From: a virus
Taxonomy: Duplodnaviria > Heunggongvirae > Uroviricota > Caudoviricetes
IMG/VR virus record: IMGVR_UViG_2563366831_000011
Location: 1-50,364 of that record
Length of the DNA: 50,364 bases
Direction: 5' to 3' (one strand)
The position numbers were made by a program, and so were the translations under genes. This document shows, one piece after another, positions 1,009-50,364 of this stretch (position 1 is the first letter of the stretch; each line of letters starts with the position of its first letter). Below the pieces are notes generated by a model, which was given only the letters and a program-made list of their open reading frames with translations, had not been told where the DNA came from and made no database searches.

Positions 1009-1083
1009 GTCCTCTTAGTTAAATGGATATAACGAGCCCCTCCTAAGGGCTAATTGCAGGTTCGATTCCTGCAGGGGACACCA
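1009..1083 (+). tRNA. argW: tRNA-Arg (anticodon CCU), intact, CCA encoded
   Basis: 75 nt. Acceptor stem GTCCTCT/AGGGGAC (one G-U pair). Anticodon arm AGCCC-CTCCTAA-GGGCT gives anticodon CCT. T-arm is GCAGG-TTCGATT-CCTGC. Ends ACCA. Confidence 0.95.
1069..1083. repeat. attL core (CTGCAGGGGACACCA), identical to the 3' end of argW
   Basis: Exact 15-nt copy recurs at 48661-48675. Flanking bases differ on both sides. Confidence 0.85.
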
Positions 1084-33494: not shown

Positions 33495-33570
33495 TGGTGC
33501 TGTTTAACGGACTTGAACCGCTACCCATTCGCTTACAAGGCGACCGCTCTACCATTGGAGCTAAAACAGC
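33495..33570 (-). tRNA. Phage tRNA-Thr (anticodon UGU)
   Basis: The reverse complement is GCTGTTTTAGCTCCAATGGTAGAGCGGTCGCCTTGTAAGCGAATGGGTAGCGGTTCAAGTCCGTTAAACAGCACCA. It has a 7-bp acceptor stem, the anticodon loop CTTGTAA, and a T-loop TTCAAGT. There is one mismatch at the base of the anticodon stem. Confidence 0.75.
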
Positions 33571-33575
33571 ATGTT

Positions 33576-33650
33576 TGGCGGGACAGCGTGGACTCGAACC
33601 ACGATAAGAAGGTTAACAGCCTTCCGTAATGACCTTTATACGACTGACCC
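33576..33650 (-). tRNA. Phage tRNA-Asn (anticodon GUU)
   Basis: The reverse complement is GGGTCAGTCGTATAAAGGTCATTACGGAAGGCTGTTAACCTTCTTATCGTGGTTCGAGTCCACGCTGTCCCGCCA. It has a perfect anticodon stem GAAGG/CCTTC with loop CTGTTAA and a T-arm CGTGG-TTCGAGT-CCACG. There is one acceptor mismatch and a weak D-stem. Confidence 0.7.
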
Positions 33651-33713: not shown

Positions 33714-34232
33714 CTAAATGGATAATTGCATGTCAAGGCTTTTAACAGCAACATGCTTAACTTTCTCAACACGTTTACGCATTTTAAAAGCATTTTGCAT
33801 TGGCTGGTATAAAACAAATAATGACGCTTTCAGGATGTCGTCAATTTCGTTTCTACAGGTTGCCAGTGAAGGTTTTCTCCATCCCTCGCCACCACGTCCA
33901 CACATCTTGCGTGGCTTTGCAGTCGCGTGATAGTAGGATGCAATTGCTCGCTTAGATGAACCATGAGCGTAGTAGCTTAGGAGGATGCCAAAGGCTTTCT
34001 TGTCAATGTACATGACGGAATCGACGACCTGAGAAATCAACATTCCATCGTCATCATTACACATTGGCCTTGTCATAACTCTTCCCGGCTCTACGCTCTC
34101 CATGAACTTCGCTATTACGCTGCTCATGCGCTTTTCCAGACGACCTGAATAAACCCATGCGCCCCACAGTTCAAGCCAGCCATTCAGCCACTCATGCTGT
34201 TCTTTGGTGAGGTTTAGTTCTCTTATGCCCAC
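33714..34232 (-). CDS. Late-gene antiterminator Q (non-lambda Q family)
   Basis: 172 aa. The position (after the nin genes, before lysis) and the motif [14 protein letters not shown] are typical of Q proteins of the phage 21/82 type. It has a GTG start that overlaps the ninI stop. Confidence 0.7.
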
Positions 34233-39876: not shown

Positions 39877-40155
39877 TCAGGCCTCAAAACTGTTGCAGCA
39901 GTCTTGAGGCTTTTCTTTTGTCAGCACCATGGCTACTTTCTTTGCCAGCTCTGCTAATTCCTCGTCTTCAACCCCCCACTCCAGCACAGCCAGAAGCATG
40001 GCCATCTTTGGGATAAAGCTGTCTTTCCATCGCGAAATTTGCGATTCATTAATCCCTAATGCATCAGCAACCTTTCGCTGACCACGTACAGCAATTCGAT
40101 TCAGGATGTTGCTTGTAATTGCATTCGCTTTCTTGCGAGTACTTGTAAGTTGCAT
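39877..40155 (-). CDS. cII: CII transcriptional activator
   Basis: 92 aa. ...SQISRWKDSFIPKMAMLLAVLEWGVEDEELAELAKKV parallels lambda CII SQISRWKRDWIPKFSMLLAVLEWGV. Confidence 0.85.
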   Translation of the reverse strand: MQLTSTRKKANAITSNILNRIAVRGQRKVADALGINESQISRWKDSFIPKMAMLLAVLEWGVEDEELAELAKKVAMVLTKEKPQDCCNSFEA

Positions 40156-41415: not shown

Positions 41416-42273
41416 ATGAAGAAAGCAGCAATTTTAATTGATGCGGGTTTTTTCATGCAGCGTGTTCATGCTACGCATCGTAAACACTTCGCCGAGCATG
41501 AACTGACTGCGCAATGCATAATGAAAGTAATATGGTCAATGGTTCTTTCCCATCTTAATGGAAAACGTCAATCACAAGAACGTAGGGAACCGCTTGAGCT
41601 TTATAGAATTTACTTCTATGACTGTCCACCACTCGACATTCAAACACGCCTTCCACTTCCTGAGCATGGCAATAAGACGCCTGGTCGCAAGAATTTCAAA
41701 CTCGAAAAATCATATATTCTGAGAACGGAGCTGCATGAAGAGTTAAGAAAAACTCGAAAAACAGCCTTAAGATTAGGGAATCTTGTTGATAATAAGCGAT
41801 GGCAACTAACTACATTCTCCCTTGATGCTCTGATGAAAGGAACGAAAAAATGGGATGAACTGACAAATGATGATTTTTACTATGACATCAAACAAAAACA
41901 AGTTGATATCAAGCTAGGGATGGATATCACGACTTTAGCTTATGAAAAACTTGTTGATGTAATTGTCCTTGTTGCTGGGGACTCAGACTTTGTGCCTGCC
42001 GCCAAACACGCCAGAATTAAAGGTATTGATTTTATTCTTGATCCACTAAGACAGAATGTTACCCCATCACTGTCAGAGCACATTGATGGAGTTCAGTCAT
42101 ACAGCTTGATATCAGGACTTGCCGATGCTTTACATGTTGAGCCAGACCCGGCACCTGACTGGTGGGAAGATCGAAAAAAAGGCAAGCCTAGAGGAAAAAA
42201 CAATAGCGGTAAACGCAGGTATGGAAACACTCAAGCTGAGTCTGCAAAGAAACATCAAAGAAATAAACGATAA
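41416..42273 (+). CDS. NYN/LabA-like (PIN-like) predicted ribonuclease with a Lys/Arg-rich C-terminal tail, in the rexAB position
   Basis: 285 aa. NYN-type motifs are KAAILIDAGFF (N-terminal Asp), DIKLGMDI and VIVLVAGDSDFVPAAKHARIKGIDFIL. The C-terminus is KKGKPRGKNNSGKRRYGNTQAESAKKHQRNKR. It is AT-rich relative to the lambda flanks. Confidence 0.6.
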   Translation: MKKAAILIDAGFFMQRVHATHRKHFAEHELTAQCIMKVIWSMVLSHLNGKRQSQERREPLELYRIYFYDCPPLDIQTRLPLPEHGNKTPGRKNFKLEKSYILRTELHEELRKTRKTALRLGNLVDNKRWQLTTFSLDALMKGTKKWDELTNDDFYYDIKQKQVDIKLGMDITTLAYEKLVDVIVLVAGDSDFVPAAKHARIKGIDFILDPLRQNVTPSLSEHIDGVQSYSLISGLADALHVEPDPAPDWWEDRKKGKPRGKNNSGKRRYGNTQAESAKKHQRNKR

Positions 42274-48161: not shown

Positions 48162-48329
48162 ATGCACTTCCGAGTCACAGGTGAATGGAATGGAGAGCCA
48201 TTCGACAGGGTTATCGAAGCAGAGGACATCAACGACTGCTATAACCACTGGATGATATGGGCGCAGATAGCGCATGCAGACGTAACCAATATTCGAATTG
48301 AAGAACTGAAAGAACACCAAGCCGCCTGA
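48162..48329 (+). CDS. 55-aa hypothetical protein upstream of torI (below the ORF-track cutoff)
   Basis: GGAG SD. The product is MHFRVTGEWNGEPFDRVIEAEDINDCYNHWMIWAQIAHADVTNIRIEELKEHQAA. It resembles my vague recollection of the K-12 KplE1 gene next to torI, so I do not assert a symbol. Confidence 0.5.
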   Translation: MHFRVTGEWNGEPFDRVIEAEDINDCYNHWMIWAQIAHADVTNIRIEELKEHQAA

Positions 48330-48342
48330 TGGCGGTTTTTTA
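48321..48342 (+). terminator. Rho-independent terminator
   Basis: CCGCC-TGAT-GGCGG-TTTTTTATT. Confidence 0.75.
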
Positions 48343-48351
48343 TTGCCTGAT

Positions 48352-48367
48352 TTGCAGGTTCGATTCC
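48352..48367. repeat. 16-nt fragment identical to argW positions 1054-1069 (T-arm region)
   Basis: TTGCAGGTTCGATTCC is an exact match. Together with 48661-48675 it reconstitutes 30 contiguous nt of the tRNA 3' half. Confidence 0.85.
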
Positions 48368-48386
48368 CTATTCGGAGATAGCACTC

Positions 48387-48587
48387 ATGCAACACGAACT
48401 ACAGCCTGATTCACTGGTTGATTTGAAATTCATCATGGCCGATACTGGCTTCGGTAAAACCTTCATCTACGACCGGATTAAGTCCGGCGACCTGCCAAAA
48501 GCCAAAGTTATCCACGGACGAGCAAGATGGTTATATCGTGACCATTGTGAATTCAAAAATAAGCTCTTAAGCCGCGCTAATGGGTAA
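48387..48587 (+). CDS. torI: TorI: KplE1-type excisionase (recombination directionality factor) and Tor response-regulator inhibitor
   Basis: 66 aa. MQHELQPDSLVDLKFIMADTGFGKTFIYDRIKSGDLPKAKVIHGRARWLYRDHCEFKNKLLSRANG matches E. coli TorI as I recall it (AlpA/Xis-type winged helix). Confidence 0.85.
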   Translation: MQHELQPDSLVDLKFIMADTGFGKTFIYDRIKSGDLPKAKVIHGRARWLYRDHCEFKNKLLSRANG

Positions 48588-48601
48588 AATAGCGGGTAAA
48601 A
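48582..48601. promoter_or_regulatory. Two direct GGGTAAAA octamers at the attR arm
   Basis: Copies at 48582-48589 and 48594-48601. The first overlaps the torI stop codon. The same octamer occurs three times at attL. Confidence 0.45.
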
Positions 48602-48660
48602 TATTTCTCACATCTAAAAAATATCATTCCAATCAACCCCCTGCCGCGCCAAGTAGATGT

Positions 48661-48675
48661 CTGCAGGGGACACCA
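48661..48675. repeat. attR core (CTGCAGGGGACACCA)
   Basis: Exact copy of 1069-1083. This is the displaced original 3' end of argW. Confidence 0.85.
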
Positions 48676-49116
48676 GATACCCTTCAAACGAAATCTACCT
48701 TCACCCCGTAAAAGATGGGTTTGGCAGCACACTTGCCTTATATCTACTCATTTTTACTGCAACAGGTTGAAATCTCAGCACTGTCAGAAAGCGCTGATGA
48801 CTAAACAGCCCTGGGCCGGGCGATGTAACCATCACACAGAATCCTGATAGCGAAATATGGCGTGACTCGATACTTCACTCCGCAATGCATTCCTTGATGA
48901 ATTCGCAGGACCGTGATACACGGGACAGGTCACTGAATGACGACAATGTCCTGGAAATCAGCGAACCGCGCATCTGAAGTACATTTGAGCGACTGTACCA
49001 GAACATGAATGAGGCGTTTGGATTAGGCGATTATTAGCAGGGCTAAGCATTTTACTATTATTATTTTCCGGTTGAGGGATATAGAGCTATCGACAACAAC
49101 CGGAAAAAGTTTACGT

Positions 49117-50364
49117 CTATATTGCTGAAGGTACAGGCGTTTCCATAACTATTTGCTCGCGTTTTTTACTCAAGAAGAAAATGCCAAATAGCAACATCAG
49201 GCAGACAATACCCGAAATTGCGAAGAAAACTGTCTGGTAGCCTGCGTGGTCAAAGAGTATCCCAGTCGGCGTTGAAAGCAGCACAATCCCAAGCGAACTG
49301 GCAATTTGAAAACCAATCAGAAAGATCGTCGACGACAGGCGCTTATCAAAGTTTGCCACGCTGTATTTGAAGACGGATATGACACAAAGTGGAACCTCAA
49401 TGGCATGTAACAACTTCACTAATGAAATAATCCAGGGGTTAACGAACAGCGCGCAGGAAAGGATACGCAACGCCATAATCACAACTCCGATAAGTAATGC
49501 ATTTTTTGGCCCTACCCGATTCACAAAGAAAGGAATAATCGCCATGCACAGCGCTTCGAGTACCACCTGGAATGAGTTGAGATAACCATACAGGCGCGTT
49601 CCTACATCGTGTGATTCGAATAAACCTGCATAAAAGACAGGAAAAAGTTGTTGATCAAAAATGTTATAGAAAGACCACGTCCCCACAATAAATATGACGA
49701 AAACCCAGAAGTTTCGATCCTTGAAAACTGCGATAAAATCCTCTTTTTTTACCCCTCCCGCATCTGCCGCTACGCACTGGTGATCCTTATCTTTAAAACG
49801 CATGTTGATCATCATAAATACAGCGCCAAATAGCGAGACCAACCAGAAGTTGATATGGGGACTGATACTAAAAAATATGCCGGCAAAGAACGCGCCAATA
49901 GCATAGCCAAAAGATCCCCAGGCGCGCGCTGTTCCATATTCGAAATGAAAATTTCGCGCCATTTTTTCGGTGAAGCTATCAAGCAAACCGCATCCCGCCA
50001 GATACCCCAAGCCAAAAAATAGCGCCCCCAGAATTAGACCTACAGAAAAATTGCTTTGCAGTAACGGTTCATAAACGTAAATCATAAACGGTCCGGTCAA
50101 GACCAGGATGAAACTCATACACCAGATGAGCGGTTTCTTCAGACCGAGTTTATCCTGAACGATGCCGTAGAACATCATAAATAGAATGCTGGTAAACTGG
50201 TTGACCGAATAAAGTGTACCTAATTCCGTCCCTGTCAACCCTAGATGTCCTTTCAGCCAAATAGCGTATAACGACCACCACAGCGACCAGGAAATAAAAA
50301 AGAGAAATGAGTAACTGGATGCAAAACGATAGTACGCATTTCTGAATGGAATATTCAGTGCCAT
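49117..50364 (-). CDS. cscB: Sucrose:H+ symporter CscB (LacY/oligosaccharide:H+ symporter family)
   Basis: 415 aa and complete, with its ATG at the window edge. MALNIPFRNAYYRFASSYSFLFFISWSLWWSLYAIWLKGHLGL... matches E. coli CscB as I recall it. The csc locus is known to lie next to argW. Confidence 0.9.
   Translation of the reverse strand: MALNIPFRNAYYRFASSYSFLFFISWSLWWSLYAIWLKGHLGLTGTELGTLYSVNQFTSILFMMFYGIVQDKLGLKKPLIWCMSFILVLTGPFMIYVYEPLLQSNFSVGLILGALFFGLGYLAGCGLLDSFTEKMARNFHFEYGTARAWGSFGYAIGAFFAGIFFSISPHINFWLVSLFGAVFMMINMRFKDKDHQCVAADAGGVKKEDFIAVFKDRNFWVFVIFIVGTWSFYNIFDQQLFPVFYAGLFESHDVGTRLYGYLNSFQVVLEALCMAIIPFFVNRVGPKNALLIGVVIMALRILSCALFVNPWIISLVKLLHAIEVPLCVISVFKYSVANFDKRLSSTIFLIGFQIASSLGIVLLSTPTGILFDHAGYQTVFFAISGIVCLMLLFGIFFLSKKREQIVMETPVPSAI

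What the first reader, a model, noticed from the sequence alone, without database searches (positions are those of the whole stretch)
48352..48675. Thirty contiguous nucleotides of the argW 3' half are split exactly around the torI gene
Seen in the sequence: 48352-48367 (TTGCAGGTTCGATTCC) equals tRNA positions 1054-1069, and 48661-48675 (CTGCAGGGGACACCA) equals positions 1069-1083. The two pieces abut in the tRNA, sharing C1069. In the prophage they are separated by 293 bp that contain only torI and its flanks. A 16-nt exact match is very unlikely to occur by chance in a 50-kb window.

Inference: the ancestral att region probably carried about 30 bp of tRNA identity, and the excisionase gene (RDF) was inserted into it or evolved within it. 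Alternatively this is the scar of nested or tandem integrations at argW. Either reading bears on how the unusual 'int at one end, xis at the other' KplE1-type module arose.
Basis: seen in the sequence. Interest (0 to 1): 0.55.

Follow-up and report, generated by a model that had tools for sequence, protein, structure and literature searches.

The report
Conserved tRNA T-loop box before torI
The 16-base tRNA look-alike in front of the prophage excision gene torI is real and belongs to a conserved, apparently undescribed "T-loop box" of the well-known KplE1/HK620/Sf6 integration module, but the neat "30 bases split exactly around torI" picture holds only in the E. coli lineage.

Summary
TTGCAGGTTCGATTCC (48352-48367) and CTGCAGGGGACACCA (48661-48675) each occur only there and in argW (1054-1083). 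The 15-mer is the published KplE1 att core. The 16-mer is not a scar of this strain: it is also in K-12 KplE1, HK620, Sf6 and 52 of 55 E. coli-type torI loci.

In relatives from other Enterobacterales the conserved part shrinks. GTTCGATT (tRNA G53 plus the 7-nt T-loop) is invariant in 17 of 17 box-bearing lineages and is the longest invariant run in the alignment, longer than any in torI itself. Its flanks drift, it is tandemly duplicated in three lineages, and it is absent from others.

The "exact split" does not generalise:
- The left copy runs on to CCTG in Serratia and Pantoea.
- The sequence left of the core is itself T-loop-like (TTCGATGT) in most lineages, so the two copies overlap.
- The first TTGC of the 16-mer aligns with a lambda pI-type cII half-site.

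Best reading, at low-to-moderate confidence: a tRNA-derived box kept by selection as a DNA site in the torI leader, for TorI (its GTTCG pentamer) and/or IntS. It is not needed for excision in vitro. Interest is moderate.

The parts
1009..1083 (+). argW, tRNA-Arg(CCT); attL side of the prophage
   Evidence: ARAGORN; sequence
1054..1069 (+). tRNA copy of the 16-mer: end of the variable loop, T-stem 5' strand, T-loop and CC
1069..1083 (+). att core in attL (CTGCAGGGGACACCA)
   Evidence: the published KplE1 core is CTGCAGGGGACACCAT (PMC2951348)
1091..1118 (+). TorI sites I1 (GTTCGCTC) and I2 (GTCCGTAA), 12 nt apart
   Evidence: sequence, mapped from the description in PMC2951348
1154..1181 (+). 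TorI sites I3-I5 (GTTCG, GTTCG, GATCG; 10-bp period) next to the PintS -35 box TTGACA
   Evidence: sequence; PMC2951348
1245..2405 (+). intS integrase gene (99% identical to E. coli IntS)
48319..48342 (+). intrinsic terminator shared with lambda (after the orf55-like ORF 48162-48329)
48343..48355 (+). TTGCCTGATTTGC: cII-box-like repeat with a 5-nt rather than 6-nt spacer. It is homologous to lambda pI TTGCGTGTAATTGC and is annotated as the cII site of a 'phage integration' promoter in the HK620 record
48352..48367 (+). the 16-mer, which is the E. coli form of the T-loop box
48358..48365 (+). GTTCGATT, the invariant core of the box (tRNA G53 plus the 7-nt T-loop); contains the TorI pentamer GTTCG
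   Evidence: PMC2951348
48374..48378 (+). GGAGA, Shine-Dalgarno sequence of torI
   Evidence: sequence; conserved in the alignment
48387..48587 (+). torI, the recombination directionality factor (66 aa; 100% matches in the database)
48582..48602 (+). two GGGTAAAAT repeats, putative IntS arm-type sites of the P arm
   Evidence: sequence; conserved in all lineages; TAAA is the arm-site motif (PMC2951348). Assignment inferred
48631..48643 (+). AATCAACCCCCTG, a conserved block and probable IHF site of attR (inferred)
   Evidence: conservation
48652..48660 (+). AGTAGATGT, degenerate T-loop remnant left of the core (TTCGATGT in most other lineages); inferred IntS core-type site C
48661..48675 (+). 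att core in attR

Best explanation
The 15-mer at 48661-48675 is the ordinary att core of a KplE1/HK620/Sf6-type module, here on a roughly 47.6-kb lambdoid prophage in argW. The 16-mer is the E. coli version of a separate, conserved 'T-loop box' that forms the left edge of the torI-attP-intS module.

Shown:
- The box is carried by free phages as well as prophages.
- Its 8-nt core GTTCGATT is invariant across divergent lineages while its surroundings drift.
- It has been duplicated in tandem three times independently and lost several times.
- A second, degenerate T-loop copy sits directly left of the att core. The module therefore holds two overlapping tRNA-derived copies, not one 30-mer cut in two.

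Inferred:
- The box descends from the argW T-arm, the attB/attL 'B' side. A normal attP does not contain that side.
- Selection keeps it as a DNA site in the torI leader, 21 nt upstream of the start codon and 8 nt upstream of the SD.
- The most likely ligands are the module's own recombination proteins. TorI has the experimentally defined recognition pentamer GTTCG. IntS must recognise the same T-loop sequence next to its crossover in attB. Either would couple torI expression to recombinase occupancy.

The box is not part of the minimal excision substrate.
For: - The module is identified by IntS at 99%, TorI at 100% and the core duplication.
- The same box is in K-12 KplE1, HK620 and Sf6, and the exact 16-mer is in 52 of 55 E. 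coli-type loci.
- The box is present in Enterobacter, Citrobacter, Serratia, Pantoea/Erwinia, Edwardsiella and Hafnia-type modules, with unrelated sequence upstream of it.
- GTTCGATT is invariant in 17 of 17 lineages and is the longest invariant run of a 246-column alignment. Only 10 of 66 third codon positions of torI are invariant, and the spacer and upstream flank show 0.32-0.44 pairwise identity.
- Within E. coli-type loci, variants inside the box are all singletons, whereas flank variants reach higher frequencies.
- Tandem copies occur in Erwinia/Pantoea-type loci (16-nt unit; L003, L132, L163), in L117 and in L009 (13-nt units).
- In 1.83 Mb of fetched loci, GGTTCGATT[CT]C occurs only in tRNA-Arg genes, upstream of torI, and at three unrelated coding sites.
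- TorI sites are 8-mers defined by GTTCG, GATCG or GTCCG, TorI represses intS, and PtorI is 'non-characterized' (PMC2951348).
- The sequence left of the core is T-loop-like in nearly all lineages.
Against: - The box is an atypical TorI site. In 37 P'-arm sites the base after GTTCG is C or T in 36 and A in one, and the base before it is mostly A, whereas the box reads G-GTTCG-A.
- The tandem copies are spaced 13-16 bp, not the 10 or 20 bp seen in attL.
- The IntS idea needs the outer part of a half-site to bind on its own. The true C site is less conserved than the box.
- The box is dispensable in several lineages: the Klebsiella type, Dryocola, Tatumella and the L118 group.
- It lies outside the 135-bp attR that suffices for excision in vitro (PMC3509656).
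- No binding or expression data exist for it.
- The lineages were chosen because they carry the box, which inflates the apparent invariance.
Confidence: 0.4

Rival explanations
1. An ancestral attP carried a continuous copy of about 30 nt of the argW 3' half. A segment holding torI plus the P arm was then inserted or integrated at the T-loop. This left a T-loop heptamer at both ends and put the RDF and int genes on opposite sides of attP. The box is the left junction and a relic.
For: - The pieces lie in tRNA order and orientation.
- T-loop-like TTCGAT+T/G is present at both ends of the torI segment in most lineages.
- The left piece contains the B-arm side (CAGG), which a normal attP lacks.
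- Several integrase types with different sublocations use arg tDNAs (bioRxiv 10.1101/2020.11.02.365908).
- A TorI homologue in Proteus sits next to int with no attP between them, so the order has changed during evolution.
Against: - The distant clades with the same torI-attP-int order lack the left piece.
- Compared with lambda, L013 and L109, the box behaves as an 18-25-nt block within an RDF leader.
- A relic would not be the most conserved 8-mer of the region while the right-hand repeat decays.
- No uninterrupted intermediate was found.
- The IntS crossover inferred here lies in the acceptor-stem part (about AGGGGAC), not in the T-loop.
Confidence: 0.2
2. The box is a promoter element. It would be the -35 and spacer region of the uncharacterised PtorI, or of a cII-activated pI-like promoter (as annotated in the HK620 record). 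That promoter would start near or after the torI SD and so express int without TorI during the establishment of lysogeny.
For: - The HK620 record annotates a 'phage integration' promoter and a cII site over the equivalent of 48342-48380.
- Lambda has the same terminator / cII box / SD / xis layout.
- Arsenophonus L019 has a lambda-like TTGCGTGTAATTG directly before torI.
- The prophage encodes a lambda-type CII and has canonical N6 boxes at the pRE and paQ positions.
- The distance from the box to GGAG is mostly fixed at 8 nt.
Against: - The repeat here has a 5-nt spacer, not 6.
- The TTGC half-sites are not conserved in other genera, whereas GTTCGATT is.
- The consensus scan found no sigma-70-like promoter.
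- A promoter spacer gives no reason for an invariant 8-mer.
Confidence: 0.15
3. The box is a neutral hitch-hiker. It is a tRNA-derived or chance fragment that travels with the module edge and looks conserved because of recent horizontal spread and my choice of lineages.
For: - The box has been lost repeatedly without loss of the module.
- SNPs do occur inside it (L060, L062, L070, L080, L115, L122).
- It is not needed in vitro.
Against: - Eight consecutive invariant columns stand against 15% invariant third codon positions in the same sequences.
- The adjacent 6-nt spacer and 7-nt SD-to-ATG stretch have no invariant column.
- The shared derived CCC (tRNA has CCT) points to one old origin followed by drift of the flanks only.
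Confidence: 0.15
4. The box acts as an RNA T-arm mimic in the torI mRNA leader, for example as a substrate or decoy for T-loop enzymes or as a structure that controls translation.
For: GUUCGAUUC fits the generic T-loop consensus and lies 8 nt before the SD.
Against: - The 3' strand of the stem is not conserved.
- The alignment fold gives -1.2 kcal/mol with no covarying pair.
- ARAGORN and Rfam find nothing there.
Confidence: 0.03

Closest known systems
KplE1 (CPS-53) / HK620 / Sf6 / CUS-3 recombination module at argW (IntS, TorI, attL/attR; work of Panis, Ansaldi and colleagues)
   Same: The window has the same integrase, the same RDF, the same 15-16-nt core, the same GTTCG-type TorI sites and PintS in attL, and the same P arm. 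It is a full-length lambdoid member of this group.
   Different: Nothing differs in the module itself. The box upstream of torI is present in all the classical members. It is not mentioned in the accessible papers and is not annotated as tRNA-related in the HK620 or Sf6 records. I could not read Panis 2007 (JBC), Panis 2010 (Virology), Clark 2001 or Menouni 2013.
Lambda xis leader with the cII-dependent pI promoter
   Same: Both have the same upstream terminator, a TTGC...TTGC repeat, then an SD and the RDF start codon.
   Different: Lambda has the canonical 6-nt spacer and no T-loop box. Here the spacer is 5 nt, and 18 nt (AGGTTCGATTCCCTATTC) lie between the repeat and the SD.
TorI binding sites I1-I5 of attL
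   Same: Both share the pentamer GTTCG in an 8-nt unit. The context of I1 (CAGTTCGCTCCC) resembles the box (CAGGTTCGATTCCC).
   Different: The flanking bases of the box are atypical for TorI sites. The box lies on the other side of the prophage, in front of torI, and outside the defined att substrates.
T-loop-type att cores of tRNA-targeting integrases (symmetric sublocation; for example mycobacteriophage Ms6 attP, PMC1762012)
   Same: A 7-nt T-loop is flanked by (partly) inverted T-stem arms. The pattern of an invariant loop with drifting arms is what a crossover site shows.
   Different: No integrase is known or predicted to use it. IntS crosses over in the acceptor-stem part. In most lineages the 3' arm is not complementary.

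Membership tests
KplE1/HK620/Sf6-type argW recombination module | IntS-family integrase gene immediately downstream of argW | tested here: met
   The gene at 1245-2405 is 99% identical to E. coli IntS.
KplE1/HK620/Sf6-type argW recombination module | TorI RDF gene at the opposite prophage end, next to attR | tested here: met
   The gene at 48387-48587 encodes 66 aa, with 100% matches named TorI.
KplE1/HK620/Sf6-type argW recombination module | Duplicated core CTGCAGGGGACACCA(T) at both ends | tested here: met
   There are two exact copies of 15 nt. The 16th base is T at attL and G at attR.
KplE1/HK620/Sf6-type argW recombination module | Five TorI sites (GTTCG/GTCCG/GATCG) overlapping PintS in attL | tested here: met
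   The sequence at 1091-1118 and 1154-1181 matches the published description. Binding was not tested.
tRNA gene or tRNA-like RNA at 48.35 kb | Cloverleaf or a covariance-model match | tested here: not met
   ARAGORN finds no gene there, Rfam has no match, and there is no conserved fold.
Lambda-type cII-activated promoter (pI) | TTGC-N6-TTGC straddling the -35 region | tested here: not met
   The spacer is N5 at 48343-48355. N6 boxes exist at 40109 and 33907. The half-sites are not conserved in other genera.
TorI binding site | Pentamer GTTCG/GATCG/GTCCG within an 8-nt site | tested here: met
   GTTCG lies at 48358-48362 (PMC2951348).
TorI binding site | Flanks as in the known sites ([C/T]A before the pentamer, C/T after it), with 10- or 20-bp phasing | tested here: not met
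   A follows GTTCG in only 1 of 37 sites. Tandem box copies are 13-16 bp apart.
TorI binding site | Specific binding by TorI protein | not testable with these tools
   This needs EMSA or footprinting.
att core for a T-loop crossover | A 7-nt overlap identical to the host T-loop, flanked by inverted arms, and used by an integrase | tested here: inconclusive
   The loop is identical and invariant. The arms are inverted only in the Serratia and Edwardsiella / P. stewartii versions. No cognate integrase is known, and all sampled hosts have the same T-loop, so covariation cannot be tested.

The most novel reading that the evidence does not exclude
The T-loop box is a phage-borne mimic of the left half of attB (argW T-arm). 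IntS and/or TorI occupy it to gate RDF expression. In that reading, the proteins that read the bacterial tRNA target also read a decoy copy in front of torI, which would supply the missing cis element in the control of KplE1-type prophage excision. A bolder variant is that the box is still a usable T-loop crossover site that mobilises the torI-P-arm cassette.
Probability: 0.3. Interest if true: 0.6.

Novelty: new variant of a known kind. Interest (0 to 1): 0.4.

Why it matters
In KplE1-type prophages the integrase is made all the time, and excision is decided by whether TorI is made. The group that studies the system calls PtorI non-characterized and names RDF expression as the key open point (PMC2951348). 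A short, strongly conserved, tRNA-matching box directly in front of torI is a concrete candidate for that control, and it can be tested with simple binding and reporter assays.

For att-site evolution, the result replaces a tidy but lineage-specific picture (30 nt split by torI) with a firmer one. There are two overlapping T-arm-derived copies. One has decayed into the integrase's core-type site. The other is held invariant.

There is also a practical point. The published attL primer ends in the same 16 nt, so it can prime at the box as well.

Tried and rejected
- Chance match: rejected on uniqueness, specificity across 1.83 Mb of loci and cross-genus conservation.
- Strain-specific chromosomal scar: rejected, because free phages HK620 and Sf6 and more than 50 E. 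coli-type loci carry the 16-mer.
- Degenerate tRNA gene or known RNA family: none found.
- RNA hairpin or SD sequestration: no conserved structure.
- Covariation of the base before CAGG with the host tRNA: not supported. Hosts are almost uniformly TTGCAGG, whereas the box has G, C, A or T there. The ACAGG variant matches a Proteus-type tRNA, but I could not pair hosts with phages.
- Uninterrupted 30-mer fragments outside tRNA genes: none in the row-capped IMG/VR scans.
- Residual homology of the torI SD region to the acceptor strand (GGAGATAGCA against GGGGACACCA, 7 of 10 in E. coli): not conserved in other lineages, so treated as chance.
- Extra GTTCGATT or CAGTTCG sites elsewhere in the prophage as a TorI regulon: counts are near chance or uninformative.
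- Literature: Panis 2007 (JBC) and Menouni 2013 (PNAS) are not held. The sequence string occurs in no held paper.

Full report
**Observation.** ARAGORN places tRNA-Arg(CCT) at 1009-1083. Reading the sequence and pattern searches confirm two exact matches. TTGCAGGTTCGATTCC occurs at 1054-1069 and 48352-48367. CTGCAGGGGACACCA occurs at 1069-1083 and 48661-48675. Neither occurs anywhere else in the window, even with two mismatches, and the shuffle expectations are 0.02 and 0.07. The two pieces abut in the tRNA. In the prophage they are 293 bp apart.

**Context.** The window holds a prophage of about 47.6 kb in argW.
- Its integrase (1245-2405) is 99% identical to IntS.
- The 66-aa ORF at 48387-48587 is TorI.
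- The 15-mer is the published KplE1 core, CTGCAGGGGACACCAT (PMC2951348).
- attL carries the published TorI sites. These are 8-mers defined by GTTCG, GTCCG or GATCG, at 1091-1118 and 1154-1181.
- The prophage has lambda-type CI, Cro and CII.
- The 293-bp gap contains torI and the whole P arm of attR: two GGGTAAAAT repeats and a conserved AATCAAnCCCCTG block.

**The 16-mer is part of the phage module.** BLAST shows that homology to lambda-like phages (an orf55-like ORF plus a terminator) ends at about 48349-48355. Homology to K-12 KplE1, HK620 and Sf6 runs from 48337 or earlier through the core. The 16-mer is identical in K-12 KplE1, HK620 and Sf6. It is exact in 52 of 55 E. coli-type torI loci fetched from IMG/VR and GTDB. 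It is therefore not a scar of this strain's history.

**Wider family.** I collected TorI-encoding loci from one genome per species and from viral contigs, which gave 70 distinct upstream variants.
- A block (N)CAGGTTCGATT(C/T)CC, usually 8 nt before the SD GGAG, is present in E. coli, Enterobacter, Citrobacter-type, Atlantibacter-type, Serratia, Pantoea/Erwinia, Edwardsiella and Hafnia-type modules. The sequence upstream of it is unrelated between them.
- In an alignment of 17 such lineages, GTTCGATT (48358-48365; tRNA G53 plus the seven T-loop bases) is invariant. It is the longest invariant run of the 246 columns.
- For comparison, only 10 of 66 third codon positions of torI are invariant. 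The spacer, the SD-to-ATG stretch and the upstream flank have no invariant column.
- The flanks CAG and CC are about 73% conserved. The leading TTG of the 16-mer is only 43% conserved.
- Three lineages have independent tandem duplications: a 16-nt unit in Erwinia/Pantoea-type loci, and 13-nt units in L117 and L009.
- The box is absent from Klebsiella-type, Cronobacter-type, Dryocola, Tatumella, Arsenophonus, Proteus and 'MELRDD' modules. On a rough NJ tree several of these absences are nested among box-bearing lineages, which implies losses. One distant clade lacks the box entirely.
- Dryocola L013 and Cronobacter-type L109 read ...CCTG|GAG..., exactly where their relatives carry a 25-nt block containing the box.

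**The split is not exact outside E. coli.**
- In Serratia L011 and Pantoea L014 the left copy continues as CCTG, as in the tRNA.
- Immediately left of the core, almost every lineage reads TT(C/A/T)GATGT(A/C/T)TGCAGGGGAC. This is the T-loop followed by three fixed mismatches and then the exact 3' end. E. coli has the more decayed AGTAGATGT.
- The module therefore carries two overlapping T-arm-derived copies. The right one is best read as the integrase's core-type site C. I infer an inverted repeat, GATnnATG...CATnnATC, around an overlap near AGGGGAC (inference).
- The first TTGC of the 16-mer belongs to TTGCCTGATTTGC. This aligns base for base, with one gap, to lambda's pI cII box TTGCGTGTAATTGC behind the same terminator. 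Relative to lambda, the torI leader has 18 extra bases (AGGTTCGATTCCCTATTC) between that repeat and the SD.

**Is the box tRNA-derived?**
- In 1.83 Mb of fetched loci, GGTTCGATT[CT]C occurs in 120 tRNA-Arg genes, about 135 times upstream of torI, and at three unrelated coding sites.
- Host tRNA-Arg(CCT) genes are nearly uniform: TTGCAGGTTCGATTCCTGCAGGGGAC.
- The box includes the T-stem 5' strand, the 'B' side of attB. A normal attP does not carry that side, so it must have come from the tRNA or attL, or it mimics them.
- Most lineages share the derived CCC where the tRNA has CCT. This points to one old origin followed by drift of the flanks.

**What the box does.** This is inference.
- *RNA roles are disfavoured.* There is no tRNA or Rfam match, no conserved fold and no covariation.
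- *It is not needed for excision in vitro.* The published attR substrate starts inside the 3' end of torI (PMC3509656).
- *A pI-type promoter is possible.* The HK620 record annotates one there. However, the repeat spacing is N5, whereas the pRE and paQ boxes of this prophage are N6. The half-sites are not conserved elsewhere, and no sigma-70-like promoter was found.
- *TorI is a candidate ligand.* The invariant 8-mer contains TorI's recognition pentamer, and TorI is already known to repress intS. The box flanks, however, are atypical of 37 TorI sites from the P' arms, and the tandem copies are not helically phased.
- *IntS is the other candidate.* The invariant part is exactly the argW-specific T-loop next to IntS's crossover in attB, so IntS must read that sequence there.

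I therefore favour a DNA operator in the torI leader for the module's own recombination proteins, with modest confidence (0.4). The refined split-att or nested-integration model (0.2), a promoter element (0.15) and a neutral hitch-hiker (0.15) remain rivals.

**Novelty.** The module and its core are well known. I found no mention of the box in the accessible literature, but several key papers could not be read. The open question it bears on, the control of RDF expression, is stated explicitly by the group that studies the system.

Noticed in passing
window 48352-48367; PMC3509656 methods: The published primer attL-KpnI (…GCTAATTGCAGGTTCGATTCC) ends in the same 16 nt as the box upstream of torI. 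It can therefore also prime at attR/attP, about 310 bp from the core. This is relevant to PCR assays of KplE1-type att sites.
   Followed up: no
L003 2484-2515; also L132, L159, L163, L117, L009: The T-loop box is tandemly duplicated three times independently: CAGGTTCGATTCCCGT/CAGGTTCGATTCCCAC with a 16-nt period in Erwinia/Pantoea-type loci, and 13-nt units in L117 and L009.
   Followed up: partly
L021 2992-4567 (Proteus hauseri): A TorI homologue (62 aa) lies convergent with, and overlapping the 3' end of, a 385-aa integrase gene that is adjacent to tRNA-Arg(CCT). The RDF and int genes are on the same side and no attP lies between them. This tRNA has an ACAGG/CCTGT T-stem.
   Followed up: partly
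window 40109-40122 and 33907-33920: Canonical TTGC-N6-TTGC cII boxes lie inside the CII gene (pRE position) and inside the ORF next to the two phage tRNA genes (paQ-like position). The torI-leader repeat is N5.
   Followed up: partly
window 33495-33650: The prophage carries its own tRNA-Thr(TGT) and tRNA-Asn(GTT) genes on the minus strand.
   Followed up: no
window 41416-42273: A 285-aa ORF with a NYN (RNase-like) domain lies directly downstream of the CI repressor gene, in the position where lambdoid phages often carry exclusion or defence genes.
   Followed up: no
window 48676-50364: The host flank right of attR differs from K-12, where dsdC follows. Here a LacY-family symporter gene (49117-50364, minus strand) follows, and related genomes annotate a DUF4942 gene. 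The base after the core is G at attR and T at attL, so the repeat is 15 nt rather than 16.
   Followed up: no
window 48310-48437, minus strand: There is a sub-threshold Rfam match to the enterobacterial sRNA STnc130 (25 bits, gathering score 55, E = 0.15), antisense to the terminator, the box and the torI 5' end. It is probably noise.
   Followed up: no
L019 about 2555-2595 (Arsenophonus nasoniae): The torI homologue is preceded by TTGCGTGTAATTG, almost identical to lambda's pI cII box, directly before its SD and with no T-loop box.
   Followed up: no
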